From contig CAYUGQ010000001.1 in NCBI GenBank assembly GCA_964444305.1, forward strand, positions 1-62,441: a stretch of 62,441 nucleotides of DNA, written 5' to 3'. The translations under genes and the position numbers were made by a program. Origin of the DNA: an uncultured Candidatus Sumerlaeota bacterium (lineage in GTDB: Bacteria; Sumerlaeota; Sumerlaeia; Sumerlaeales; Sumerlaeaceae). Shown one piece after another: positions 36,222 to 48,908 of the stretch (its first letter is position 1; each line of letters begins with the position of its first letter). The notes beneath the pieces are model-generated. The model was given only the letters and a program-made list of their open reading frames with translations. It was not told the DNA's origin and did not search any database.

Positions 36222-39200
36222 GTGGGCGCACAAGATTTGGTTGCTACTGACTATATAATCGGGATTGACCTCGGCACAACTAACTCTGTTGTGGCCATCC
36301 TCGAAGGGGAATCGCCCAAGGTAATCCCTAACTCCGAAGGCAGCACAAAGACGCCGTCTGTCGTCTCCATACTGGACGGCGATGAAGTTTGCGTCGGAGA
36401 AGTCGCCCGCAGGCAGGGTGCCGTCAACCCCACCCGCACCGTCTTCAGCGCCAAGCGGCTCATGGGCCGCACCCCGGAAGATATTGAAGCCATGGGCATC
36501 TACACGCCCTACGACCTCGAATCCACCGTTGACTCCCAATTAGTCATCAACATCGACGATAAGCTTTACACCCCTGCCCAGATCTCCGCCATGATTCTCC
36601 AAAAGCTGAAACAGGCTGCAGAGGATTATCTCGGCGAAACGGTCAGCAAGGCGATTATCACTGTCCCCGCTTACTTCGATGACCTCCAGCGACAAGCCAC
36701 GCGCGAGGCTGGGGAATTGGCCGGTCTCGAGATCCTTCGTCTCGTAAACGAGCCAACCGCTGCTGCTATGGCATATGGCCTTGGTAAAGAGCGCCAAGAG
36801 CGCGTCGCCGTCTATGATTTCGGCGGCGGCACCTTCGATTTGACTATCCTCGAAATTAATGACGGCACCTTCGAAGTCCTCACAAGTCAGGGCGACACCC
36901 ACCTGGGCGGCGATAACCTCGATTCCATGCTTGTCCAGCATCTTGTAGACGCCTTCCGTGACCAGAGCGGGATTGATTTCGAACCTGACGGGATGGCCAT
37001 GCGCCGCCTCACTGACGCTGCCGAAAAAGCCAAATGTGAGCTCTCTCTTGCCCGACAGGCTGTCATCCATCTCCCCTTCCTCGCCCAGAATGATGGCAAC
37101 CCCGTCCACTTGGATCTAACCATCCATCGCGACGATTTCGAAGACCTCATCGAGCCCGTTCTCCAGCAAAGCCTGGAATGCTGTCGTGCGGCCTTGGAAG
37201 ACTGCGATCTGAAGCCCTCGGATATCGACAAAGTTATCCTAGTCGGCGGCACCACCCGCATACCGCTGCTGCAAGAGATTGTAGAAGACTTCTTCGGTGT
37301 TCAACCCTTTAAAGGGATCAACCCGGACGAAATCGTGGCCCTTGGAGCCGCCACCCAGGCTGGTGTTCTGGCGGGTAAACTTAAAGAAGTCATCCTGCTG
37401 GATGTCACGCCCCACAGTCTTGGAGTGGAAGTAACCGAGAACCGGGTGACCCGCATCATTGAGAAGAACGCCACAATCCCTCTGAACGTTTCCCGCCTCT
37501 TTACTACGACGGAAGATGGGCAGGAAATGGTAACTATCCATGTCCTTCAGGGCGAGTCGGAGAAGGCATCCGAGAACCGTTCCCTTGGAAAGTTTACCCT
37601 CACCCAGATCGCTCCCGGAAAAGCCGGGGCCGCCCGGGTGCAAGTGACCTTCCATGTTAATGCGGACGGTATGGTGGAAGTCACGGCGGAGGATATGGCC
37701 ACTAACCGCCAGGAACGTCTGAAGCTTATCCTGGGCGAGAAAGATACGCTGCAGGCCGCGAGGGAACGTGCCCAGGGGGTAGCTTCATCCCGCCGGCGCA
37801 GACGGCGTAGGCAGCGTGATCGCGACGGCGCAACATCAGAATCCGAAATTCTCACAGGAACCACCCCCCGTCGTGCGGATGAAACCGGGTCCCGCAAGCT
37901 TCGTCCGCGCGAAAGCTCCACCGGCGGCCGTTCCCTGCGTCAGGCTACCATGGCTGAAGTGCCCGTAAACCCGGCCCAGGCTTCCCGTCCCCCTGTTGGC
38001 CCGATGCCGCCTCCGGGGCCATCGGAAACCGCGCCAAGTTTGCCTCCGGTTCAACCTTATCAACATGCCTCGGCTATGGCCGCATCTGCGTCTGCTGCTT
38101 ATTCCGAAGCTGAACCTACGCCAGATCCCACCACCGTCGTGGCCCCGCCGGAGATGTCGGAGCTCGCTGTTCAGGCCCTGACTCTCATTAAAGAAAAGGC
38201 CAACTCCGCCAGCGCCTACGAGACCTATCTCAAGGCTTACTCGGAGGTTAACGATTACGCCCGAAAACACCCTGATGACTTTGAGGTGGCGGAAGGGGCA
38301 GTTTTTATCCTGATGACTCTAGGGGAAAGCGATGGGGCGCGCACCCTTTTGAGCACTCTCACCAATCAGTCCAGCAATCCCACCCGCTATACGCACCTTC
38401 ATGATGAACTGGCGCGACGCTTTCCGGCAGACCCTTCGGTCACCGAGTCTATTTCTTCCACCAGCGGTACAAAGCAAGGTACCGACACGGCCATTCGTGC
38501 TATGGAAGAGATCGTTACGGAAACCAGTGGGACTTCTGAACAGATCAACCAGCTTGTTCAATTGTATCGTCGCAAGCTGGCCCATGGGGACGATCCGCCC
38601 ACTCAGTATAAGCTTGTTAATCTGCTTCTTCGTCTTGAACGTGTAGACGAAGCCATCAATATGCTGCAGAGGCTGGCTCAGCAGGAAACTTATCGGCTGC
38701 CTTCCCTCAAAATCCTTGGGCTCTGTTTCTGGCAGAAAGGTCTCCATTACCTTGCATGGCAGAAGTTCCAGCAGCTTCAGCCTAACGAGGAGATCAAGGA
38801 CATCCTGTACCGGCTCGCGTCGGACATGGAAGACACGGACCAGCTCCTTAACGCCAAGGTTGTTTTCCAGCATATTGTCAACGCGGATCCCGAATTCCGT
38901 GACAGTTCCAGCCGCCTTAAGAAGATCGAACAGATCATCCGTATGGAAGCGGGAAACCGGGAGGCCAGCCTTACTCCCAGCATCTTTCTCACCCTCAAAG
39001 ACTCCCGGTTTGTTATCCTGGAAGAAGTCAACCGGGGCAGTATGGGGATTGTTTACCGCGCCAGGGACAAGGTTTTGGAAGAGATCGTTGCTCTCAAAAT
39101 CCTCAACGATTACATGACGACTGACCCGACTGCCGTGGAGCGTTTTAAGCGTGAAGCCCGGGCCGCAAAGCGTCTTTCTCATCCCAACATCGTTCGGATC

Positions 39201-39785
39201 CATGACATGTTTGAGTATGGTCAAAAGAAGCTGCTCTCCATGGAGTTTATCGAAGGTGTTGACCTGAAGTCTGTCCTGGCGGATCGTAAAACGCTTCCGG
39301 TCCATGAGGTGGTCAGTATTGCCCGTCCTGTTTGTGACGCCCTGGCGTATGCTCATCAGCAATCGATTGTCCACCGGGACATTAAGCCGGCGAACATCAT
39401 GATCACTAACACCAATCAGGTGAAGGTGACAGATTTTGGTATCGCAAAGGTCCTTCTCGCGGGTGCGGATGCGACCCGGTCCGGATCTCAGATCATTGGC
39501 ACGCCCCTGTATATGTCGCCGGAGCAAATCCTTGGCAGTGAAGTTGATGCTCGCACGGATATTTACAGCCTTGGTGTCATGCTTTACGAAATGGTTGCCG
39601 GCAAGCCTCCGTTCCTTGAAGGCAATATCGAATACCATCATCTCCATACTATGCCTCCGCCTATGAACGATAGCGTGCCGCAGGCTATAAGGGAGATCGT
39701 CATGAAATGCCTTGAGAAGAATCCTGAAGACCGTTTTCAGGCGATTTCAGAACTGGGTGACGCCCTCGGCAAAATCGGCGATTAA
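36222..39785 (+). CDS. Hsp70(DnaK-like NBD + SBD-beta)-TPR-like-Ser/Thr protein kinase fusion protein
   Basis: Hsp70 signatures [24 protein letters not shown] and [15 protein letters not shown]; linker [12 protein letters not shown]. An Arg7 run and a Pro-rich linker span about 37.79-38.15 kb. Helical TPR-like repeats span about 38.17-38.93 kb. The kinase (about 39.0-39.78 kb) has [20 protein letters not shown] and MSPEQ. The start may instead be the TTG at 36237, which has better Shine-Dalgarno spacing. Confidence 0.9.
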   Translation: [1187 protein letters not shown]

Positions 39786-39799
39786 TCATCCGCTATGAC

Positions 39800-39838
39800 G
39801 ACCTGTTACGCACGGCGCAGGGTCTGAGGTGTTTTTTT
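39800..39838 (+). terminator. Probable intrinsic terminator after the Hsp70-kinase gene
   Basis: An imperfect GC hairpin (gacctg...cagggtc) is followed within 8 nt by a T7 run (39832-39838). Confidence 0.45.
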
Positions 39839-39840
39839 AA

Positions 39841-40380
39841 GAGTTTGATGATTGATTCTACTAAGGTTATCAAGCTGGGAGTCGATGGTATTTTTATTGA
39901 GTTCGATTGCTGATTTTGTTGAGCTTGGAGATAGGCTTGTCGGATTTAGGGAGAAATTTTATGTTTGTGGTTTCTAAGGTTCGTAAAGGGTCGCCTGGGA
40001 AGAGATGAGTGGAAAAGCGCGGATGGGGCGAGTGCTTTTGCGGGAACAGATTAAGGCTGGTTTTATGGTTTGTGTTGATCATGGGTGGGGAATTATCATT
40101 GGCGGGACGGGCTGGGTATTCCCGTATGGGTACTTGGGATGCGACAGGCTGTTTTTTGAAGGGGTCTTGCCTACTTTCAGGTAATCTGTAGCTGTCACGT
40201 TTGTGGGCTGCGTGGCTTAAATGGGCCAATTGCATGGATCTTGTGAGACATTTTAACGCATTGTTCGATATAAGGCCACGGGAATCATTGCGGAATTGCG
40301 AGTGCTTGCCATTGGTTTTAAATGGGTTAGATGTGTATTTCGAGTGTGGTGTTTGCGTCGGCACACGGCGTGCTCTTGGT
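39841..40380. other. C-depleted, G+T-rich (on the + strand) region with no convincing gene
   Basis: Hand count: 31 C in 39841-40140 (about 10%) and 43 C in 40141-40380 (about 18%). Neighbouring genes look compositionally balanced by eye. Confidence 0.6.
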
Positions 40381-40443
40381 TGAGAAAACTCAGCTGATCA
40401 TACTCAACGTTTAGCCGATCGGCGAAGAAAATTAAAGGGCTCT

Positions 40444-40767
40444 ATGAAAACACAGACTATTACGCTTCAAGCGCAGGGTGTTGACCCTGACTATTTAGCT
40501 AATCCTTCAAGTGACCCGCTTCAGTATGCCATCCAGGCTTTACCTGAACTTGATATTCCCGCGAAGGGACGCATTGCCCATCATATTCGCCGGGGCCGGA
40601 TTGACCGGGCTATTGCTCTTTGTGCGGCTGGCCAGCTTCATCTCTGGGAAAATATCTGGAAAAATGCACGTAACATGTCAGTCCTGGAACAACTCAGCCG
40701 CCTTAAACAGGTGGAAGCTTTGTTGCGTGCCTATGCGGGCTATGGGCCTGCCGCATCTGCGTTATAA
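40444..40767 (+). CDS. Hypothetical small protein (107 aa), no recognisable domain
   Basis: ATG-initiated ORF with codon usage like its neighbours. A bidirectional terminator follows it. Confidence 0.5.
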   Translation: MKTQTITLQAQGVDPDYLANPSSDPLQYAIQALPELDIPAKGRIAHHIRRGRIDRAIALCAAGQLHLWENIWKNARNMSVLEQLSRLKQVEALLRAYAGYGPAASAL

Positions 40768-40835
40768 TCGGCAGCTTAGATACCTGCAGCGCCTGGAAGC
40801 ATCCTTGTAATCTACTATCGGAAAATCCAAAGGGT

Positions 40836-40896
40836 AAAAAAAGCCGATGAACCGGAGCCTTATATTATCGGGCTCTGGATCACCGGCTATATTTTT
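40836..40896. terminator. Bidirectional intrinsic terminator between the small ORF and the convergent GHL10 gene
   Basis: A 17-bp imperfect stem (40843-40859 with 40871-40887; 14 of 17 positions Watson-Crick paired, one more a G-U wobble). An A7 run precedes it and a T5 run follows. Confidence 0.6.
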
Positions 40897-40918
40897 CCTG
40901 GCGGTTTTGCCAGTTGGG

Positions 40919-42799
40919 TTATTTGGGGGAAATACGGATAGCGTCTGCGATTACAACGAAGCCCGGAGTTGTCCAGCAGGACAGCCTGACAGTGTTGCTT
41001 CCCGCATTAATGTTATAGGTACCGAGGCTCTGCCAGCTTCCGCCGCTGGTCTGTTGATTTCGATTAACAGTCGTACTGCCGCCCGCCCGGCTGATCATAT
41101 ACGGTGCTGTCGCCGACCGGTTCGGTCCCTGGCTCCACCATGCATAGACTTCATAGCTGCGAGTCTGAGGCGCGGTCCAGTTCCAGGTGGCGGGGTCTGA
41201 CACTGATTCTGTATGACGGAAACGGTAATTCGGCCCGTACTTATCGGAGGCCGATGTCGCCGTGATCCAGTTGGCGGATGCGGCCAGCGCATTCGTATCC
41301 AATATGATATCCGCAGGATTGGATGGGGAGGATTTTGGGCTTTCGTTTCCTGCACGGTCCACGGCGGAAACAGCATAATCCTGTGTGTTTCCCGGAGCGG
41401 AATAGTTTGTAGCTGATCCGGGCAGGACTACGGTGTTCCAGGTTGATCCGTTATAGGTATGGACCACCCACCATTTTGCTTTTTCATCGCCCGGGTTTTG
41501 GGAGAATGTGATCAGGCGGCGTGATGGTGACCCGGTGGGTGCGCCTATGGAGGAGACGGGGGTCGGTGGTGGTGTATTATCCAGCCAGGTAGCTGCAGGC
41601 CGCAGGGCTGGTTTTGCGTAGGGTCCTGCTTTCAAAGCTGTCCGGACACCTGTGGGGTTATCGGTCAGCCATTTCAAGCTGTAATGGACGTTACCAACTC
41701 CATTGCCCTGCCGGGTACGGTTCACCTGGTTTACAATTTCTGCAGATGTGGTGTTGCCCCATCCTGCAAAGGTTGAATCTCCCACACGATAAACTGCCGT
41801 GCTGGCAAGGACATGGCGGGACGTGTTTTGGATTACCCACCAGTCTATGAGTGCACCAAAAGGCTGACCGGACGATGCAAGTGTCCAATATAGCTGTGGC
41901 GAAAGGGAATCGACCCAGCCCTCCTGAAGCCATTTGCGGCTGTCGCAATAATGGGTTGCGTAATAATCTGCCCCGACGATTCCGGCGGGGTTTCCGGGCC
42001 GCCAGATACCGAAGGGTCCGACGCCGAATTGACACGTGTTCCGGATGTCATGGACCAGTTCGTAAACTTCGCGAATTAGGGTGTTAACATTTTCACGGCG
42101 CCAGTTCGCCAGCGACATGGTTCCGCCGCTGTTTACATAGGCCTGGTAAGTGGCGCTGTCGGGGAAATTTGTGCCGGGATAGAAGTAGTCGTCAAAAACT
42201 ACGCCATCCACATCGTAATTTGTAACGATGTCTGCGATGACATTTTTGATCCAGTTGATGCTGTCCTGTTTGCCGGGATCAAGATAGGTGCGGCCGTCCG
42301 AATACTGCACGCACAAATCCGGCCGTTGGCGCATCACGTGGCTGGGCGATTTGTTTGAGGTGTTATGATCAATGGCCACGCGGTACGGGTTGACCCAGGC
42401 ATGAATTTCAATTCCTCGGGCATGGCCCTCCTGGATGGCAAAAGCGAGTGGATCCCAGGTGGCTGCGGTGTTTTGGGATCCAGTCAGCCATTGGCTCCAG
42501 GGCTCGATGCTGGAATCATAGAAAGCATCCCCTGCGGGCCTTACCTGAAAATACATGGCATTCATATTGGCATCAGCCATTGCATCGAGATGCTGGATCA
42601 TCCGCGCTTTTTGCGCCGCTACCACGGATGGACTGACTCCGGACTGTGGGGGCCAGTCTATCCGCGACACCGTCGCACACCACGCTGCCCGTGTTTCACG
42701 GGGAGTCGCCGGAACAGGCGGCGCTGCAATGGCCCCCGCTCCCAGCGACATTACAACAGACATCATTACACCAGACTTCCAACGGAAACGTTGCTGCAT
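40919..42799 (-). CDS. Secreted glycoside-hydrolase-like family 10 (GHL10/YngK-type) protein with an FN3-like region and the same C-terminal module as the amidase at 1474-2424
   Basis: NMNAMYFQVRPAGDAFYDSSIEPWSQWLTG and the IEIHAWVNPY TIM-barrel motifs. The signal peptide begins at MQQRFRWKSG..., whose ATG at 42799 has a GAGGGAG Shine-Dalgarno sequence. The ORF can extend to 42847. Confidence 0.8.
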   Translation of the reverse strand: MQQRFRWKSGVMMSVVMSLGAGAIAAPPVPATPRETRAAWCATVSRIDWPPQSGVSPSVVAAQKARMIQHLDAMADANMNAMYFQVRPAGDAFYDSSIEPWSQWLTGSQNTAATWDPLAFAIQEGHARGIEIHAWVNPYRVAIDHNTSNKSPSHVMRQRPDLCVQYSDGRTYLDPGKQDSINWIKNVIADIVTNYDVDGVVFDDYFYPGTNFPDSATYQAYVNSGGTMSLANWRRENVNTLIREVYELVHDIRNTCQFGVGPFGIWRPGNPAGIVGADYYATHYCDSRKWLQEGWVDSLSPQLYWTLASSGQPFGALIDWWVIQNTSRHVLASTAVYRVGDSTFAGWGNTTSAEIVNQVNRTRQGNGVGNVHYSLKWLTDNPTGVRTALKAGPYAKPALRPAATWLDNTPPPTPVSSIGAPTGSPSRRLITFSQNPGDEKAKWWVVHTYNGSTWNTVVLPGSATNYSAPGNTQDYAVSAVDRAGNESPKSSPSNPADIILDTNALAASANWITATSASDKYGPNYRFRHTESVSDPATWNWTAPQTRSYEVYAWWSQGPNRSATAPYMISRAGGSTTVNRNQQTSGGSWQSLGTYNINAGSNTVRLSCWTTPGFVVIADAIRISPK

Positions 42800-42979
42800 A
42801 TTGAGATCTCCCTCAGGTTGATTTTTTACATCGGGGACAACAGACAACAGGTCAGGAAGTGCCTGGATCGGATTGGAGCCGAGACACTGTCATGATTGGA
42901 CTAACGCATGGCAAGCCGAGTGCCTGAGAGTAAAGCTCATAGTTGCAAAAACGCACCATGAGCATTTTCATAATCTGTT

Positions 42980-45061
42980 ATGTATACCGGTCCCGTGATG
43001 GAGACTCTGCGCGATCGGTTGCAGCGTATGGTCCGACCCAAACCATTAGCGGCTGCGGGGCTTGCGGCAGGTTTAATGGTTGGTGTCTGGGCCTGGGCCC
43101 AGCACGCCATTGAAGAGTCCATTCGAGACCTGACGTCGGATAGCCTGACGGCTCTTCTTCAATCCAACGTCGAGGCGCTCGAGATGTGGATTGAGACAGA
43201 GATTCTCGAAGTTCAATCCTGGGCCAGCGCTGGTATTACGAAAAATGCGGTGCAGGAACTGGAATCGCTGGCGCGGGCAAACGGCAGCAGCGAGACCTTG
43301 CTTCAATCGCCTTCCCTGGAACACTTGCGCACGTTCTTGAGTCCTGCTCTGGCCGAACCTGACGTTTTTGGATTTCTTGTAACCAACCGGGAGGGGCAAG
43401 TCATCGCGGCGGCTACAGACAAGCTCGTTGGGCGTCGTTTGACGCCACAGGGTCAGGCTCGCAACGCAGCAGCTTTTTCTTCCGGGTGGGGTATCTATAA
43501 ACCTGTAGATGGCAGCCTGTTGGTGGAGGATGTGGACACCACGGAAGCCATTCCCGTGATTCTTTCCGCTGCAACCGTATTAAATGATGCCGGCGAGCCG
43601 ATTGCCGCATTGACCATGTTTCTTGATCCGGAACAGGATTTTAGCCGTATTCTTTCGGTGGGTCGCCTGGGCTCTACCGGATCCACTTATGCTTTCGACG
43701 GCAATGGCATCATGCTGTCTGAGCTGCGATATGAAAAGGACCTGGTTCGGCTGGGGCTGGTAGAGGATAAGAACGATGCTCAGTCTACCCTCATTGTTCC
43801 TGTCCGCGATCCAGGGGGTAACCTGTTAGAAGGCTATCAGCCGGACCGGGATCTGGATGAAATGCCTTTGACGCGGGCTGTAGCGTCGGCGGTCCGCGGC
43901 CGTTCGAGAGTCACGCTTGAACCCTATCGAGATTATCGTGGGGTGGAAGTGGTGGGCGCGTGGACGTGGCTTCCGCGTCATAACTTTGGCGTTGTTACGG
44001 AGATTGAAGCCCACCAGGTGATGAACATTTTGCGGCCTTTGCGCCTGGCATTCTGGGGCATGTTTATCCTGATTGCGCTGTTAATGGCGGGTGTTTTTAT
44101 TACTGCTTATGTCATCAGTATCATGCGTCAGAAACAAAAAAGTCAGCGCGTGATTGGGCAGTATACGCTGTTGGAGAAAGTTGGCGAAGGGGGGATGGGT
44201 AAGGTTTATTGTGCCCGGCACGCCTTGCTGCGGAGGCCTACGGCTGTAAAGCTGTTAAGAAGTGGAGACCTGACGCAGGAATTGATTTCTCGTTTTGAGC
44301 GGGAGGTCCAGATCACCAGCCGTCTGACTCATCCAAACACCGTGGAAATTTATGATTACGGGCGGACCGACTCAGGGGAGTTCTATTATGTGATGGAATA
44401 CATTGACGGTATCACGCTGGCGGATCTTGTGGAAAGGCATGGGCCGGTAAAGCCGGCGCGGGCGGTGCATTTTCTTAAACAGGTTTGTGCTTCTTTGGTG
44501 GAAGCTCATGAAGAAGGAATTATCCACCGTGACATTAAGCCGTTAAACGTCATGATCTGCAAGCGGGGCGGGGACTATGATGTGGTTAAGGTGCTGGACT
44601 TCGGGCTTGTGAAAAATGTGATCAGTGACGACGCCCTGGAGTTGACTGGGAAGGATATCGTCCGGGGAACGCCTATGTATATTTCGCCGGAGCGCCTGCG
44701 TGATCCTTCGATCGCCACGCCTGCCTCGGACCTGTATTCTATTGGCGTTTTGGCGTTTAATCTCCTGTCGGGTAAAGACCCTTACCGGGGAGCCAGCTCG
44801 CTTGATATTGCGGAGCAGGCGCTCCATGCGGAGCCACGTCGTCTTCGTGATGTTATGGATGATGATTGCCCGGCGGAGCTGGATGAGATTGTATGGAAAT
44901 GTATGCAAAAGAATCCCGCAGACCGCCCGGCCAGTGCGCGGGAGCTGCTGGATTCGCTGGCCGCGATTCCTCTGGTGTGGACCCGGGATGATGCTGAGCA
45001 GGCTTGGATTACGGAGAAGTTTAACGGAAATCGACCGCCGAAATCCGACGTTCAGTTTTAG
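42980..45061 (+). CDS. Receptor Ser/Thr protein kinase: TM - periplasmic Cache-like sensor - TM - Hanks kinase
   Basis: Two TM segments flank about 300 aa containing Cache-like strands (GFLVTNREGQVIAA, YRDYRGVEVVGAWTWL). The kinase has GEGGMGKVY, AVKLL, HRDIKPLN, DFGL and ISPER. Confidence 0.88.
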   Translation: MYTGPVMETLRDRLQRMVRPKPLAAAGLAAGLMVGVWAWAQHAIEESIRDLTSDSLTALLQSNVEALEMWIETEILEVQSWASAGITKNAVQELESLARANGSSETLLQSPSLEHLRTFLSPALAEPDVFGFLVTNREGQVIAAATDKLVGRRLTPQGQARNAAAFSSGWGIYKPVDGSLLVEDVDTTEAIPVILSAATVLNDAGEPIAALTMFLDPEQDFSRILSVGRLGSTGSTYAFDGNGIMLSELRYEKDLVRLGLVEDKNDAQSTLIVPVRDPGGNLLEGYQPDRDLDEMPLTRAVASAVRGRSRVTLEPYRDYRGVEVVGAWTWLPRHNFGVVTEIEAHQVMNILRPLRLAFWGMFILIALLMAGVFITAYVISIMRQKQKSQRVIGQYTLLEKVGEGGMGKVYCARHALLRRPTAVKLLRSGDLTQELISRFEREVQITSRLTHPNTVEIYDYGRTDSGEFYYVMEYIDGITLADLVERHGPVKPARAVHFLKQVCASLVEAHEEGIIHRDIKPLNVMICKRGGDYDVVKVLDFGLVKNVISDDALELTGKDIVRGTPMYISPERLRDPSIATPASDLYSIGVLAFNLLSGKDPYRGASSLDIAEQALHAEPRRLRDVMDDDCPAELDEIVWKCMQKNPADRPASARELLDSLAAIPLVWTRDDAEQAWITEKFNGNRPPKSDVQF

Positions 45062-47207: not shown

Positions 47208-48908
47208 ATGTCCTTAGCAGGATTTATCATTGGGGTAATGACGCGAAAATCTGCGGCCCGGTTTGAAGCTGCAACGCAAAATCCGGTGAAGGTTCAACAG
47301 GATCTTCTGGCGGAGATTCTTCAAAAGAATGCTGATACAGAATATGGTCGTCGGTATGGTTTTGCGTCTATTAAAAGTCATGAGGATTATGTCCGGCAAG
47401 TGCCCCTGGTAACTTATGATGATATTGCCGACGACATGGCTCGCGTCGCGGCGGGGGAGAAGGGGATTTTTACGGCGGAAGACCCGGTTATGTTTGCTCA
47501 GACAAGCGGCACGACGGGGGAGCCGAAGCTGATTCCTGTTACTCCATCTGACCAGGGAACGCGACATCAGGATGTGATGCGGACGTGGTTGTTTCATTCG
47601 AAGAAGGACCACCCGGATATTTTTGATCAGAAAATCGTGACGCTGGTTTCGCCGGCAATTGAGGGTTACACATCGGCTGGTATTCCTTACGGGTCGACTT
47701 CGGGTCATATCTATCGCGGAATGCCGGGCATTATCCGGCGGGCGTATTCGATTCCGTATGAGGTGTTTGAGATCGCCGATTACACGGCGCGCTATTATGC
47801 TTTAATGCGTATTTCTCTGCAACATGACGTGCGTTTGCTGTGCACCGCAAATCCTTCGTCGGTAATGAAAATGGTGGAGAAAGCGAATGAGTTCAGCGAG
47901 GAAATCATTCGCGATATTCACGATGGCACGTTTTCGGAAAGTCAGGATATTGAACCTGAGATTCGCGCGGTTGTGCAGAAGGTGCTGAAGCGGGATCCGC
48001 GGCGTGCTAAGGAACTGACGGATTTCCGTGCGCAGCGGGACGGCCGGTTGTTACCGGCGGATTACTGGAACCGGCTGAGCTTGATCGGTTGCTGGAAAGG
48101 GGGGACGGTGGGGCATTACATTGAGAAGTTTGAGCCTTGGTTTAACCCGGACCGGAATCGGCAGGTGCCGGTGCGCGACTGGGGTTTTCTGGCCAGTGAG
48201 CTGAGGGGGTCTGTGCCGTTGAGTGATGAGGGTGCGCACGGGGTTTTGAGCGTTGCGGCGAATTACTATGAGTTTTCGCCGGTGGATGCCGTGGAAGCCA
48301 ATCCCGATGATCCGACCAAGTGGCCTTTTCTTACTGTGGATGAAGTGGAAGATGGGGCCGAATACTACATCTTTCCAACAACTCCCAGTGGTCTTTATCG
48401 TTATGATATTAATGACGTGGTTCGGATTGAGGGCTGGTATAATCGGACGCCTCAGATTGCTTTCCTGCGCAAGGGGCGGGGTATGACCAACCTGACAGGG
48501 GAAAAGGTGAGCGTGAACCAGGTAATTGATGCTTTTGATGAAGCCATGACGGTTACGGGTTTACTGCCGGATCACTTTAAGGCGGAGGCGGATGCGGATC
48601 GAAGCCGCTATCTGTTCCGGGCGGAATTTTCTTCGTTGCCGTCAGATGAGGAGAAAGCTAAAATTTTCCTCCATTCGGTGGATCAGGCGCTGCAGAAACT
48701 GAACATTGAGTATGCAGAGAAACGGAAGTCTCAGCGGCTGGGGGCACCGGTGCTTCATATCATGCGTGAGGGCTGGTATGAGCGGGAGCGGAAGCGTCAG
48801 GTGGCTGAGGGAAAAAGGATGTTCCAGGCTAAGACAGAAGTTTTGTCGGCATCAAAACTGGCCACCAGTGCTATCAAGCCGGAGCTATTGGGAGTGGTGG
48901 AGTTGTAA
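47208..48908 (+). CDS. GH3-family acyl-acid amido synthetase (adenylate-forming; annotated in bacteria as 'GH3 auxin-responsive promoter' family)
   Basis: QTSGTTGEPKLIPVT adenylation motif, N-terminus FEAATQNPVKVQQDLLAEIL, 566 aa. A GAGG Shine-Dalgarno sequence is present. Confidence 0.8.
   Translation: MSLAGFIIGVMTRKSAARFEAATQNPVKVQQDLLAEILQKNADTEYGRRYGFASIKSHEDYVRQVPLVTYDDIADDMARVAAGEKGIFTAEDPVMFAQTSGTTGEPKLIPVTPSDQGTRHQDVMRTWLFHSKKDHPDIFDQKIVTLVSPAIEGYTSAGIPYGSTSGHIYRGMPGIIRRAYSIPYEVFEIADYTARYYALMRISLQHDVRLLCTANPSSVMKMVEKANEFSEEIIRDIHDGTFSESQDIEPEIRAVVQKVLKRDPRRAKELTDFRAQRDGRLLPADYWNRLSLIGCWKGGTVGHYIEKFEPWFNPDRNRQVPVRDWGFLASELRGSVPLSDEGAHGVLSVAANYYEFSPVDAVEANPDDPTKWPFLTVDEVEDGAEYYIFPTTPSGLYRYDINDVVRIEGWYNRTPQIAFLRKGRGMTNLTGEKVSVNQVIDAFDEAMTVTGLLPDHFKAEADADRSRYLFRAEFSSLPSDEEKAKIFLHSVDQALQKLNIEYAEKRKSQRLGAPVLHIMREGWYERERKRQVAEGKRMFQAKTEVLSASKLATSAIKPELLGVVEL

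What the first reader, a model, noticed from the sequence alone, without database searches (positions are those of the whole stretch)
36222..39785. One uninterrupted ORF fuses a lid-less DnaK-type Hsp70 to a TPR-like region and a Hanks Ser/Thr kinase
Seen in the sequence: a single 1187-codon frame with no stop or frame change. The first ~510 aa carry all three Hsp70 signature motifs ([39 protein letters not shown]). They also carry the DnaK interdomain linker ([12 protein letters not shown]) and a beta-sandwich substrate-binding domain that aligns residue by residue with DnaK ([36 protein letters not shown]...). The alpha-helical lid is missing. In its place come an Arg7 run, a ~130-aa Pro/Ser-rich segment, ~250 aa of TPR-like helical repeats, and a catalytically complete kinase (VALK, [11 protein letters not shown], SPE). 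There is no TM segment, and no DnaJ/GrpE-type partner nearby. Established knowledge: canonical Hsp70s end in a lid, and eukaryotic TPR co-chaperones dock Hsp70 C-termini in trans. Inference: here a chaperone-type peptide clamp is wired in cis to a kinase. That suggests client-gated phosphorylation, or a kinase switched by unfolded-protein load. I do not know of a characterised bacterial example, but I cannot search to confirm novelty.
Basis: partly seen in the sequence, partly recalled or inferred. Interest (0 to 1): 0.78.

Follow-up and report, generated by a model that had tools for sequence, protein, structure and literature searches.

The report
Lid-less Hsp70 fused to TPR–kinase
This is a real, intact gene, conserved across the candidate phylum Sumerlaeota, that joins a working-looking Hsp70 chaperone lacking its lid to a TPR domain and a PknB-type protein kinase; nobody has described it, and it may be a built-in sensor linking protein-folding stress to phosphorylation.

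Summary
Window 36222..39785 (+) is one 1187-codon ORF encoding, in order:
- a DnaK-type NBD, interdomain linker and SBD-beta;
- a short helix-A remnant of the lid;
- an Arg-rich patch;
- about 105 aa of disordered linker;
- a genuine TPR solenoid of 15-16 helices;
- a PknB-like Ser/Thr kinase.

All Hsp70 ATPase, allosteric and J-domain-contact residues are invariant across 44 homologues, and so are all kinase catalytic residues.

It is not an assembly artefact. More than 120 protein clusters share the full architecture, and 57 species-level genomes carry it, all of them Sumerlaeota/BRC1 where named. It is an intact ORF in 52 of 58 loci. No neighbouring gene is conserved, and no DnaJ or GrpE lies nearby. 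Sumerlaeota genomes carry other dnaK, dnaJ and grpE genes elsewhere.

The linker holds conserved short motifs, including a basic patch and "E-[VI]-L-x-G", which resembles the DnaK model substrate NRLLLTG.

An exhaustive search found independent Hsp70/kinase fusions in other lineages (kinase-Hsp70, and Hsp70-GrpE-kinase). I found no publication describing any of them.

My best guess (inferred, about 0.4) is a chaperone-titration switch resembling BiP-IRE1/PERK, built in cis. A CHIP-like "present the client to the kinase" model is nearly as likely.

The parts
36222..39785 (+). Whole ORF, 1187 aa (GTG start; alternative TTG start at 36237)
   Evidence: identical protein P0001
36252..37385 (+). 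Hsp70 nucleotide-binding domain (res 11-388); all ATPase residues present
   Evidence: AF2 pLDDT 84-96
37386..37412 (+). Hydrophobic interdomain linker (res 389-397, EVILLDVTP; DnaK DVLLLDVTP)
37413..37730 (+). SBD-beta peptide-binding sandwich (res 398-503). Pocket residues F427, V437, I439 kept; arch residues T405 and T430, and latch residue A468, diverged
37734..37781 (+). Remnant of lid helix A (res 505-520; AF2 helix 507-517)
37782..37826 (+). Arg-rich basic patch (res 521-535, includes Arg7 at 524-530); present in all 44 homologues examined
37827..38144 (+). Pro/Ala/Ser/Thr-rich disordered linker (res 536-641, pLDDT below 50); its length varies among homologues
37845..37859 (+). Conserved linker motif 1, EILTG (res 542-546). 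Family pattern is E-[VI]-L-x-G: column 544 is hydrophobic in 37 of 44, column 546 is Gly or Ala in 37 of 44
   Evidence: small pLDDT rise and beta-bridge at 547
37947..37967 (+). TMAEVPV (res 576-582), a possible degenerate counterpart of linker motif 2 (F-A-x-[VLI]), which occurs in 31 of 44 homologues but lacks its Phe in this clade
   Evidence: weak
38145..38954 (+). TPR solenoid (res 642-911, 15-16 helices). The C-terminal repeats are highly conserved ([20 protein letters not shown], res 830-849)
38955..39005 (+). TPR-to-kinase junction (res 912-928), low model confidence
39006..39773 (+). PknB-like Hanks Ser/Thr kinase (res 929-1184). Features: K959, E978, HRD 1051-1053, DFG 1071-1073, activation-loop T1085 and S1087, and the family-specific invariant GNIEYHH at 1134-1140

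Best explanation
What it is (shown): a cytoplasmic, stand-alone, three-module protein conserved throughout Sumerlaeota. It consists of an ATP-driven DnaK-type peptide clamp without its lid, a disordered tether carrying conserved short motifs, and a TPR-PknB-type kinase unit.

How I think it works (inferred): it is a chaperone-titration switch built in cis.
1. At rest, the lid-less SBD-beta, loaded with help from a housekeeping J-protein acting in trans, grips a pseudo-substrate in its own tether. The candidate is the basic patch plus E-[VI]-L-x-G and, in most clades, F-A-x-[VLI].
2. This grip holds the TPR-kinase unit in a monomeric or occluded, unphosphorylated state.
3. When unfolded proteins accumulate, they compete for the clamp. 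Cis-binding compensates for the fast off-rate of a lid-less SBD, so the equilibrium would be sensitive to client load.
4. The freed TPR-kinase self-associates and phosphorylates its activation loop (T1085/S1087, equivalent to PknB T171/T173).
5. The active kinase then phosphorylates downstream targets, which are unknown.

This would be a one-polypeptide analogue of BiP repressing IRE1/PERK.
For: Hsp70 competence:
- ATPase residues, NBD-SBD allosteric residues, the interdomain linker and the J-domain contact residues (E. coli R167, N170, T173) are invariant in 44 of 44 homologues.
- The pocket residues F426, Q433 and V436 (E. coli numbering) are invariant.
- The AF2 model is in the domain-docked state, TMt 0.89 to 7kzu and 0.78 to 4b9q.

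Lid loss is a family trait: DnaK alignments end at about residue 500-514 in all loci.

Conserved motifs inside an otherwise divergent disordered tether:
- A basic patch is present in 44 of 44.
- [IVLM][ILVM]xG after the patch occurs in 16 of 44 against 2.9 +/- 1.6 in shuffles, with column-level conservation of 37 of 44.
- F-x-x-[VLI] occurs in 31 of 44 against 2.5 +/- 1.5 in shuffles.

Kinase: it is a complete RD kinase, with activation-loop Thr and Ser aligned to PknB's phospho-sites.

Partners in trans: DnaJ and GrpE exist elsewhere in Sumerlaeota genomes (dnaK 1-6 copies, dnaJ 1-2, grpE 0-4).

Precedents:
- Lid-truncated DnaK self-binds downstream Leu residues, and the Geobacillus DnaK(1-504) crystal has a linker in its pocket (PMC3696110).
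- BiP with a J-protein binds unstructured regions of IRE1 and keeps the kinase monomeric (PMC5733394, PMC6996924).

Independent Hsp70/kinase fusions in other lineages, one of which includes GrpE, argue that the Hsp70 cycle and kinase activity are functionally coupled.
Against: - There is no direct evidence that the tether enters the SBD. Model coordinates and PAE were not available. The tether has pLDDT below 55, and the only hint is isolated beta-bridges at 547 and 558-559.
- The motif patterns were defined after looking at the data, and the sequences are phylogenetically related, so the shuffle statistics overstate significance.
- Motif 2 is missing in the window's own clade.
- The motifs could equally be ligands of the TPR domain or of a third protein.
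- The arch residues differ from DnaK (M404 becomes K/E/T/A, A429 becomes T, V407 becomes R/K), so the substrate specificity is unknown.
- The co-variation between the arch residue and the motif type is confounded by clade structure.
- There is no heat-shock operator upstream and no conserved genomic partner to hint at a pathway.
- The kinase N-lobe is poorly modelled.
Confidence: 0.4

Rival explanations
1. Client-presentation (CHIP-like triage) model. The Hsp70 clamp captures exposed hydrophobic segments of client proteins, either misfolded proteins in general or one dedicated client. It holds them next to the tethered TPR-kinase, which phosphorylates them, for example to mark them for degradation or sequestration or to change their activity. 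The long flexible tether lets the kinase reach a bound client, and the TPR adds a second docking surface.
For: - The clamp is competent and J-protein-responsive.
- A flexible tether of 105-250 aa separates clamp and kinase, and its length is free to vary among homologues.
- The TPR is a peptide or protein-docking fold.
- The family-specific invariant GNIEYHH lies next to the kinase alpha-G region, a typical substrate-docking area.
- Recurrent independent fusions in both domain orders fit a 'recruit the substrate' logic, which does not depend on domain order.
- From my own knowledge, CHIP (TPR plus U-box) modifies Hsp70-bound clients, and McsB marks proteins by phosphorylation for ClpCP.
Against: - A lid-less SBD releases peptides quickly, which suits prolonged holding poorly.
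- This model does not explain the conserved motifs and basic patch in the tether.
- No candidate client, protease or adaptor gene is linked to the locus.
Confidence: 0.3
2. The kinase regulates the chaperone. The kinase domain phosphorylates its own Hsp70 module or tether, or other DnaK paralogues, to tune a specialised chaperone activity. On this view the chaperone is the output and the kinase is the regulator.
For: - The tether is rich in Ser and Thr.
- Sumerlaeota carry several DnaK paralogues that could be targets.
- Phosphorylation of bacterial DnaK is documented (for example PMC4835898, listed).
Against: - The kinase then has no obvious input domain other than the TPR.
- Ser/Thr positions in the tether are not conserved.
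- A lid-less Hsp70 is a poor general foldase.
Confidence: 0.1
3. Component of an anti-phage or conflict system. The kinase would be triggered by phage proteins that the Hsp70 clamp senses.
For: PADLOC kinase models (PD-T4-6, mad6, PglW) match the kinase domain strongly.
Against: - The matches cover only the generic kinase fold, residues 924-1185.
- The gene occurs at one locus per assembly across the phylum, with 44-100% identity, which looks like vertical descent.
- The neighbours are housekeeping or metabolic genes and are not conserved.
- There is no defence-island context.
Confidence: 0.03
4. Artefact: two adjacent genes (dnaK-like and TPR-kinase) joined by a mis-assembly or by a sequencing error in the low-complexity linker.
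For: - The linker is low-complexity and GC-rich, which makes it error-prone.
- One related contig (L072) has an in-frame TAG just after SBD-beta, so the gene was called as two genes there.
Against: - The ORF is intact at about 1150-1320 aa in 52 of 58 independent loci and in more than 120 clusters from NCBI, JGI, ENA and Logan assemblies.
- The L072 stop is a single GAG-to-TAG change at a conserved Glu codon, and both halves stay in the same frame.
- The other apparent 'TPR-kinase only' representative that I inspected (P0132) is cut by a contig end.
Confidence: 0.01

Closest known systems
E. coli / Geobacillus DnaK (canonical bacterial Hsp70), especially lid-truncated constructs (PDB 2v7y, DnaK 1-509; 7kzu, truncated DnaK fused to a substrate peptide)
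   Same: - 49% identity over the NBD, linker and SBD-beta.
- All catalytic, allosteric and J-contact residues are kept, and so is the hydrophobic pocket.
- The model superposes on 7kzu at TMt 0.89.
- The natural truncation point matches that of the engineered lid-less constructs.
   Different: - No helical lid bundle and no C-terminal tail.
- The arch and latch residues are replaced.
- It is followed by a basic patch, a disordered tether, a TPR domain and a kinase.
- It is not in a dnaK-dnaJ-grpE operon.
Mycobacterium tuberculosis PknB and other Hanks-type bacterial Ser/Thr kinases
   Same: - PknB is the best PDB sequence match, at 186 bits.
- It is an RD kinase with a complete catalytic set, and its activation-loop Thr and Ser align with PknB T171 and T173.
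   Different: - No TM helix and no PASTA domains; NF033483 scores 313 bits against a cut-off of 450.
- The P-loop is N-R-G-S-M-G.
- It has a family-specific GNIEYHH motif.
- The regulatory modules are N-terminal (Hsp70 and TPR).
- It is not among the 42 families or domain combinations described in the bacterial STK atlas text.
BiP-IRE1/PERK (an Hsp70 repressing a stress-sensor kinase) in the eukaryotic ER
   Same: The proposed logic is the same. An Hsp70, helped by a J-protein, binds unstructured regions attached to a kinase and keeps it inactive, and unfolded proteins compete (PMC5733394, PMC6996924).
   Different: - In the eukaryotic system the chaperone and the kinase are separate proteins on opposite sides of a membrane.
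- Here they are one cytoplasmic polypeptide and the Hsp70 has no lid.
- There is no homology between the sensor parts.
- The resemblance is functional inference only.
CHIP/STUB1 and Hop-type TPR co-chaperones; P58IPK (TPR plus J-domain inhibitor of PKR/PERK)
   Same: - A TPR solenoid sits in the same functional neighbourhood as an Hsp70 and a modifying enzyme or kinase.
- The P58IPK TPR domain is among the generic fold and sequence hits.
   Different: - There is no EEVD tail for a carboxylate clamp to bind.
- TM-scores are only 0.3-0.4, which indicates a generic TPR.
- The output enzyme is a kinase rather than a U-box.
PknG (mycobacterial kinase with a TPR domain)
   Same: Kinase and TPR lie in one soluble protein. 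The PknG_TPR Pfam family is hit weakly by 4 of 36 family members.
   Different: - In PknG the TPR is C-terminal to the kinase, and a rubredoxin domain lies N-terminal.
- Here the TPR is N-terminal to the kinase, and no rubredoxin-type family appeared in the Pfam scan.
Other natural Hsp70/kinase fusions found here (kinase-Hsp70, e.g. P0131, P0135, P0148; Hsp70-kinase, e.g. P0134; Hsp70-GrpE-kinase, P0168), and the oncogenic DNAJB1-PKAc chimera
   Same: - Hsp70 machinery is physically coupled to a protein kinase.
- The DNAJ-PKAc chimera recruits Hsp70 to a kinase (PMC6533061).
   Different: - They lack every signature of this family: NRGSMG, GNIEYHH, CFWQK and the Arg patch.
- The two I searched are singletons whose Hsp70 halves resemble ordinary DnaKs of other phyla.
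- They have a different domain order, or an intact lid, or both.
- All are uncharacterised.

Membership tests
Hsp70 / DnaK | Actin-fold NBD with the catalytic set (E. coli D8, K70, E171, D194, T199, D201) | tested here: met
   All are present in the window protein and invariant in 44 of 44 homologues. Pfam HSP70 E=1.7e-188.
Hsp70 / DnaK | Conserved hydrophobic interdomain linker and NBD-SBD allosteric residues | tested here: met
   VLLLD is VILLD here. P143, R151, K414, N415 and D481 are kept. The model is in the docked state.
Hsp70 / DnaK | SBD-beta sandwich with a hydrophobic substrate pocket | tested here: met
   F426, Q433 and V436 are invariant. I401, L411 and I438 are conservatively replaced. 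The arch residues M404 and A429 and the latch residue R467 are changed.
Hsp70 / DnaK | Alpha-helical lid (SBD-alpha, helices A-E) | tested here: not met
   Only a helix-A remnant is present (AF2 helix 507-517). There is no homology beyond about residue 530. The same truncation is seen in all 50 loci with a DnaK-like hit.
Hsp70 / DnaK | Curated equivalog thresholds (NCBIfam) | tested here: inconclusive
   PRK00290 scores 687 bits against a cut-off of 648, which passes. TIGR02350 scores 665 against 822.55, which fails. It is of DnaK type but not a canonical DnaK.
Hanks-type Ser/Thr kinase (PknB-like) | Catalytic Lys, alpha-C Glu, HRD, catalytic Asn, DFG, APE/SPE, and the subdomain IX Asp and XI Arg | tested here: met
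   K959, E978, H1051-R-D1053, N1058, D1071-F-G, P1100-E1101, D1113 and R1171 are invariant in 44 of 44.
Hanks-type Ser/Thr kinase (PknB-like) | PknB/Stk1 equivalog: TM helix plus extracellular PASTA repeats | tested here: not met
   NF033483 scores 313 bits against a cut-off of 450 and matches the kinase domain only. There is no TM segment.
TPR repeat proteins | Tandem helix-turn-helix repeats of about 34 aa that match TPR profiles and form a solenoid | tested here: met
   TPR_19 is above its gathering score. The A3 profile matches consensus TPR at E=3e-26. 36 of 36 members hit TPR Pfams. The model has pLDDT 92 with 15 helices. Foldseek hits are CTPR8, OGT and SPY.
Hsp70-docking TPR co-chaperones (Hop/CHIP type) | Binds a C-terminal EEVD-type motif through a carboxylate clamp | tested here: not met
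   There is no EEVD at the protein's C-terminus (…ALGKIGD), and the Hsp70 module has no free C-terminus. The clamp residues themselves were not examined.
PknG-like kinases | Domain order rubredoxin - kinase - C-terminal TPR | tested here: not met
   Here the TPR precedes the kinase, and no rubredoxin-type family appeared in the Pfam scan.
Chaperone-repressed stress kinases (BiP-IRE1/PERK logic) | Hsp70 binds an unstructured segment of the kinase protein and blocks its oligomerisation; unfolded proteins relieve the block | not testable with these tools
   Only circumstantial evidence: conserved tether motifs and invariant J-contact residues.
Anti-phage kinase systems (PD-T4-6, MADS mad6, BREX PglW) | Full-length match to the system protein, and genomic linkage to the other system genes | tested here: not met
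   The matches cover only the kinase domain. No linked genes are conserved.

The most novel reading that the evidence does not exclude
Sumerlaeota carry a self-contained cytoplasmic 'unfolded-protein-response' kinase. A lid-less Hsp70 clamp, covalently tethered to a TPR-kinase, holds a pseudo-substrate in its own linker and releases and activates the kinase when misfolded clients compete. This would be a bacterial, single-polypeptide counterpart of BiP-IRE1/PERK. Other prokaryotic lineages have reached the same design principle independently (kinase-Hsp70, and Hsp70-GrpE-kinase).
Probability: 0.3. Interest if true: 0.85.

Novelty: new variant of a known kind. Interest (0 to 1): 0.68.

Why it matters
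Hsp70s are normally regulators of signalling proteins in trans, for example of sigma-32, HSF1, IRE1 and PERK. A natural protein in which an apparently active Hsp70 cycle is hard-wired to a Hanks kinase would have three uses.

First, it would give a minimal, genetically compact model for testing how chaperone occupancy is converted into a phosphorylation signal.

Second, it would add a new class of input module to bacterial Ser/Thr kinases. The recent STK atlas lists no such module.

Third, it would show what a naturally lid-less Hsp70 is good for.

The family is universal enough in Sumerlaeota to be a phylum marker and probably a core regulator in these uncultivated, widespread bacteria. The independent fusions in other lineages, one of which carries GrpE in cis, suggest a general and overlooked design principle. 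All the modules are soluble and the reference assays exist (DnaK ATPase and peptide binding, PknB autophosphorylation), so the hypotheses can be tested directly with recombinant protein.

Tried and rejected
1. Assembly artefact or two genes: rejected. The one 'split' case (L072) is a single GAG-to-TAG change in frame, and the 'TPR-kinase only' representative P0132 is cut by a contig end.
2. Conserved operon partner: none. I clustered 614 flanking ORFs from 58 loci, and the best neighbour family occurs in only 6 loci. The window's upstream genes are syntenic only in L002 and L003.
3. DnaJ or GrpE in the window or in the +/-10 kb flanks of 57 loci: none found by tblastn with E. coli probes.
4. 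Defence-system membership: PADLOC hits are kinase-domain only.
5. A specific structural twin for the TPR domain: only generic solenoids at TM 0.3-0.4. A PDB sequence search with the single-protein C-terminal half matched only the kinase.
6. Contacts between the tether or TPR and the SBD in the AF2 model: coordinates and PAE are not exposed, so this could not be examined.
7. Co-variation between the SBD arch residue and the linker-motif type: present, but it follows clade boundaries, so it is not usable.
8. Heat-shock CIRCE operator: none within 3 mismatches in the window. There are no inverted repeats in the 5' intergenic region, and the promoter and terminator scans were not above chance.
9. 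oriC near the GC-skew minimum: no DnaA-box cluster. There are no Rfam hits in the window.
10. Literature: six full-text searches and three papers inspected gave no description of an Hsp70-kinase fusion.
11. Organism names for the non-Sumerlaeota fusions: the sources give none.
12. Source record of the window protein: not on record in the gene-position index.

Full report
**1. The observation**

Window 36222..39785 (+) is a single ORF of 1187 codons with a GTG start, no internal stop and a TAA stop.

| Segment | Residues | Evidence |
|---|---|---|
| Hsp70 (Pfam HSP70) | 12-555 | E=1.7e-188 |
| TPR_19 | 788-821 | above gathering score |
| Pkinase | 932-1174 | E=2.5e-57 |

NCBIfam's DnaK model PRK00290 scores 687 bits against a cut-off of 648. 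The maximum 19-residue hydropathy is 1.08, so there is no TM segment.

A TTG at 36237 would give MVATDYIIG..., which matches the N-terminal length of the homologues better than the GTG does. This is a minor annotation point.

**2. Anatomy**

*Hsp70 part.* I aligned the protein explicitly with E. coli DnaK and tabulated 44 family members.
- The ATPase set (D8, T11-13, K70, E171, D194, T199, D201 and others) is present and invariant.
- So are the linker (VLLLD is VILLD here), the allosteric residues (P143, R151, K414, N415, D481) and the J-domain contact residues (R167, N170, T173).
- The SBD-beta pocket is kept: F426, Q433 and V436 are invariant, and I401, L411 and I438 are conservatively replaced.
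- The arch is changed: M404 becomes K/E/T/A (Thr here), A429 becomes Thr in 42 of 44, and V407 becomes Arg or Lys in 38 of 44.
- The latch residue R467 is Ala in 34 of 44.

*Lid.* The lid is truncated rather than wholly absent. Residues about 505-520 align with lid helix A, and AlphaFold2 predicts one short helix at 507-517. Beyond that there is no lid homology. The HMM alignments that run to about 555 pass through the Arg-rich low-complexity stretch.

*Tether.* After the Arg-rich patch (521-535, with Arg7 at 524-530) comes a Pro/Ala/Ser/Thr-rich segment. Its pLDDT is below 50 up to residue 641.

*TPR.* Residues 642-911 form a confident all-alpha domain.
- Modelled alone, it has pLDDT 92 with 15 helices.
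- Its profile matches consensus TPR proteins at E=3e-26.
- All 36 members scanned hit TPR Pfams.
- Foldseek returns only generic TPR solenoids (CTPR8, OGT, SPINDLY, P58IPK, Pex5) at TM 0.3-0.4.
- The last repeats (…[20 protein letters not shown]…, 830-849) are among the most conserved parts of the protein.

*Kinase.* The kinase is closest to M. tuberculosis PknB, at 186 bits.
- All catalytic residues are invariant.
- T1085 and S1087 align with PknB's activation-loop phospho-sites T171 and T173.
- Two features are family-specific and invariant: the P-loop N-R-G-S-M-G, and a GNIEYHH motif after the PPF of the alpha-F/alpha-G region.

*Model conformation.* In the full-chain model the Hsp70 part adopts the domain-docked conformation. 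It gives TMt 0.89 to 7kzu (a lid-truncated DnaK fused to a substrate peptide) and 0.78 to ATP-DnaK 4b9q, against 0.58 and rmsd 17 Å to ADP-DnaK 2kho.

**3. Is it real, and how widespread?**

- The 120 best hits in a 5.8-billion-protein collection are nearly all of similar length (1141-1317 aa; one is 933 aa). All carry both Hsp70 and Pkinase domains, at 44-100% identity.
- Every hit that carries an informative organism name is from Candidatus Sumerlaeota, Sumerlaeia or Sumerlaeaceae. They are labelled only 'molecular chaperone DnaK' or 'Hsp70 family protein'.
- I scanned one genome per GTDB species with the family-specific TPR/kinase junction. This found 57 loci, each from a different assembly. 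All are Sumerlaeota/BRC1 or unclassified 'bacterium'. The proteobacterial hits match only about 33-41 residues of the kinase N-lobe.
- The fusion is an intact ORF (median 1181 aa) in 52 of 58 loci.
I do not know how many Sumerlaeota species that collection holds, so I cannot give a prevalence.

One related contig (L072) has the gene called as two ORFs. The cause is a single GAG-to-TAG change at a conserved Glu just after SBD-beta, and both parts stay in frame. This is an error or a recent nonsense variant, not a natural split. Another apparent 'TPR-kinase only' representative is cut by a contig end.

**4. Context**

The neighbours in the window are unrelated:
- a GFO/IDH/MocA oxidoreductase;
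- PheT;
- a thioredoxin-like protein;
- a pyridine-nucleotide disulphide oxidoreductase;
- a polysaccharide-synthesis flippase-type protein;
- an unknown 304-aa protein;
- then, downstream, a GHL10 glycosidase-like protein;
- a dCache-Pkinase;
- a hydrolase;
- an enolase-superfamily enzyme;
- a GH3-family enzyme;
- a PAP2/VTT protein.

Only the two upstream genes are syntenic, and only in the two closest genomes. An unbiased clustering of 614 flanking ORFs found no family in more than 6 of 58 loci.

There is no DnaJ, GrpE or second Hsp70 in the window. There is no DnaJ or GrpE within +/-10 kb in any of the 57 loci.

The supplement of the Sumerlaeota genomics paper lists these counts for 16 MAGs (PMC8092238):

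| Gene | Copies per MAG |
|---|---|
| dnaK (K04043) | 1-6, mostly 4-5 |
| dnaJ | 1-2 |
| grpE | 0-4 |

So the fusion is one Hsp70 paralogue among several, and co-chaperones are available in trans. There is no CIRCE operator.

**5. The tether is not featureless**

Its length varies: the region I compared spans 138-283 aa among homologues. Its sequence is poorly conserved, with 18-27% column majority. Three features nevertheless recur:
1. A basic patch directly after the helix-A remnant in 44 of 44 members, with at least 6 Arg/Lys in the densest 12-residue window.
2. About 10-70 residues later, an E-[VI]-L-x-G motif (EILTG, 542-546 here).
   - Column 544 is hydrophobic in 37 of 44, and column 546 is Gly or Ala in 37 of 44.
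   - The strict pattern [IVLM][ILVM]xG occurs in 16 of 44 against 2.9 +/- 1.6 in shuffles.
3. In most clades, an F-A-x-[VLI] motif (FAVLGD, FAEVxE, FRMVGE, GFQPL).
   - It occurs in 31 of 44 against 2.5 +/- 1.5 in shuffles.
   - The window's clade lacks the Phe and has TMAEVPV at the equivalent offset.

These patterns were chosen after inspection and the sequences are related, so the statistics are indicative only.

A hydrophobic core flanked by basic residues is the classical DnaK-binding signature (my own knowledge: Rüdiger et al. 1997). EILTG also resembles the C-terminal half of the model substrate NRLLLTG.

In the AF2 model the only part of the tether that rises above pLDDT 50 is 543-561, with isolated beta-bridges at 547 and 558-559. 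I could not see what these pair with, because coordinates are not exposed.

**6. Hsp70/kinase fusions elsewhere**

An exhaustive phmmer search over 1.84 billion representatives, classified locally and by Pfam, shows these architectures among the top 150:

| Architecture | Clusters | Notes |
|---|---|---|
| Hsp70-TPR-kinase | about 12 | this family |
| Kinase-Hsp70 | 12 | mostly lid-less; P0131 and P0139 are lidded |
| Hsp70-kinase, no recognisable TPR | about 11 | includes P0168 |

P0168 carries a GrpE domain between the Hsp70 and the kinase. Its cluster has 10 members seen on many contigs, and its very acidic composition suggests a haloarchaeal origin.

These proteins lack all the signatures of the Sumerlaeota family. 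The two I searched with (P0131, P0134) are singletons whose Hsp70 halves are 56-58% identical to ordinary DnaKs of other phyla. They are therefore independent inventions.

Recurrent, independent fusion of the two machines, once with the nucleotide-exchange factor included, is Rosetta-stone-type evidence. It suggests that the Hsp70 cycle and kinase activity are functionally coupled.

**7. Mechanism**

*Shown.* The protein combines a clamp that keeps everything needed for ATP- and J-protein-controlled peptide binding, but has no lid; a flexible tether with conserved motifs; a TPR solenoid whose kinase-proximal repeats are highly conserved; and a complete, activation-loop-regulated kinase.

*Inferred, preferred model (about 0.4).* A titration switch in cis, in which the SBD grips the tether motif and restrains the TPR-kinase, and unfolded clients compete and release it for self-association and autophosphorylation. 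Three precedents make this plausible:
- Lid-truncated DnaK SBDs bind their own downstream Leu residues.
- The Geobacillus DnaK(1-504) crystal has a neighbour's linker in its pocket (PMC3696110). 2v7y, the top sequence hit, is a Geobacillus DnaK of the same kind.
- BiP with the J-protein ERdj4 binds unstructured parts of IRE1 to keep it monomeric (PMC5733394, PMC6996924).

*Main rival (about 0.3).* A CHIP-like presentation device, in which the clamp recruits clients for phosphorylation.

*Other rivals.* The kinase regulates the chaperone (0.1), a defence-system component (0.03), or an artefact (0.01).

The data do not discriminate between the first two models. The conserved tether motifs tip the balance slightly towards the switch, but they could equally be TPR ligands.

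**8. Comparison with what is known, and novelty**

The protein is of DnaK type but fails the lid criterion and one of two equivalog thresholds. It is a Hanks kinase of the PknB type, but without the TM helix and PASTA repeats. Its TPR is genuine but generic. It does not have the PknG domain order, and it has no EEVD tail for a Hop/CHIP-type clamp.

Six full-text searches and three papers found no description of an Hsp70-kinase fusion. The papers inspected were the bacterial STK atlas (42 families, Hsp70 never mentioned), the Sumerlaeota genomics paper, and a survey of Myxococcus Hsp70s. The library does not cover subscription journals, so absence there is not proof.

I rate it a new variant of known kinds: known domains in an undescribed, deeply conserved architecture with an untested coupling mechanism.

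**9. Verdict**

Interest is 0.68: the protein is real, conserved, undescribed and experimentally tractable, and it bears on how chaperone load is turned into a signal. The mechanism is still inference.

Noticed in passing
window 42980-45061 (+): A second Ser/Thr kinase lies 3 kb downstream. It has an N-terminal dCache_1 sensor domain and a C-terminal Pkinase domain (693 aa). Its kinase domain is only about 30% identical to that of the fusion.
   Followed up: partly
window 38000-41000 (GC-skew minimum) and 39786-40918: The cumulative GC skew reaches its minimum here, negative upstream and positive downstream. A stretch of about 1.1 kb has only two dubious ORFs (156 aa on the minus strand, 107 aa on the plus strand, neither with a Pfam hit). 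I found no DnaA-box cluster, no Rfam family and no CIRCE, and only one weak 15-nt inverted repeat at 40379-40408. Its nature is unexplained.
   Followed up: partly
P0168 and its cluster (P0274-P0278): An independent family of about 1042 aa with lid-less Hsp70, a GrpE domain (res 616-755) and a Pkinase domain in one chain. It is very acidic, which suggests a haloarchaeal origin, and it is seen on many contigs. A nucleotide-exchange factor fused in cis to an Hsp70-kinase seems remarkable in its own right.
   Followed up: partly
P0131, P0135, P0139, P0148, P0149, P0155, P0192, P0199, P0204, P0207, P0224, P0236: Twelve 50%-identity clusters have the opposite domain order, with an N-terminal Pkinase and a C-terminal Hsp70 that is mostly lid-less. 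P0131 is a singleton whose Hsp70 half resembles DnaK of Spirochaetota or Zixibacteria. The organisms are unknown.
   Followed up: partly
L072 3782-4051: One Sumerlaeota-type contig carries an in-frame TAG in place of a conserved GAG (Glu) just after SBD-beta, so the gene was called as a 494-aa Hsp70 plus a 750-aa TPR-kinase. It is a nonsense variant, a sequencing error or possibly read-through. It is not a designed split.
   Followed up: yes
P0137, P0160, P0163, P0166 and others: About eight clusters are tandem Hsp70-Hsp70 proteins of 1000-1220 aa. There are also giant proteins with four to six kinase domains (P0140, P0141, P0145, about 2500 aa).
   Followed up: no
window 36222 vs 36237: The annotated GTG start has almost no spacing to the upstream AAGG. 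The in-frame TTG at 36237 follows AAGGGTGG with reasonable spacing and gives an N-terminus of the same length as in the homologues.
   Followed up: partly
window 40919-42847 (-) and 47208-48908 (+): A GHL10 glycosyl-hydrolase-like protein carries a C-terminal Golvesin_C domain. Separately there is a bacterial GH3-family protein (of the acyl-acid amido synthetase type). Both are unusual annotations for a bacterium, and neither appears related to the finding.
   Followed up: no
L059-L070: Kinases in Gammaproteobacteria and Thiotrichaceae share the unusual P-loop E-[IVL]-N-R-G-S-M-G with this family, but nothing upstream of it. They may be the closest stand-alone relatives of the kinase domain.
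   Followed up: no
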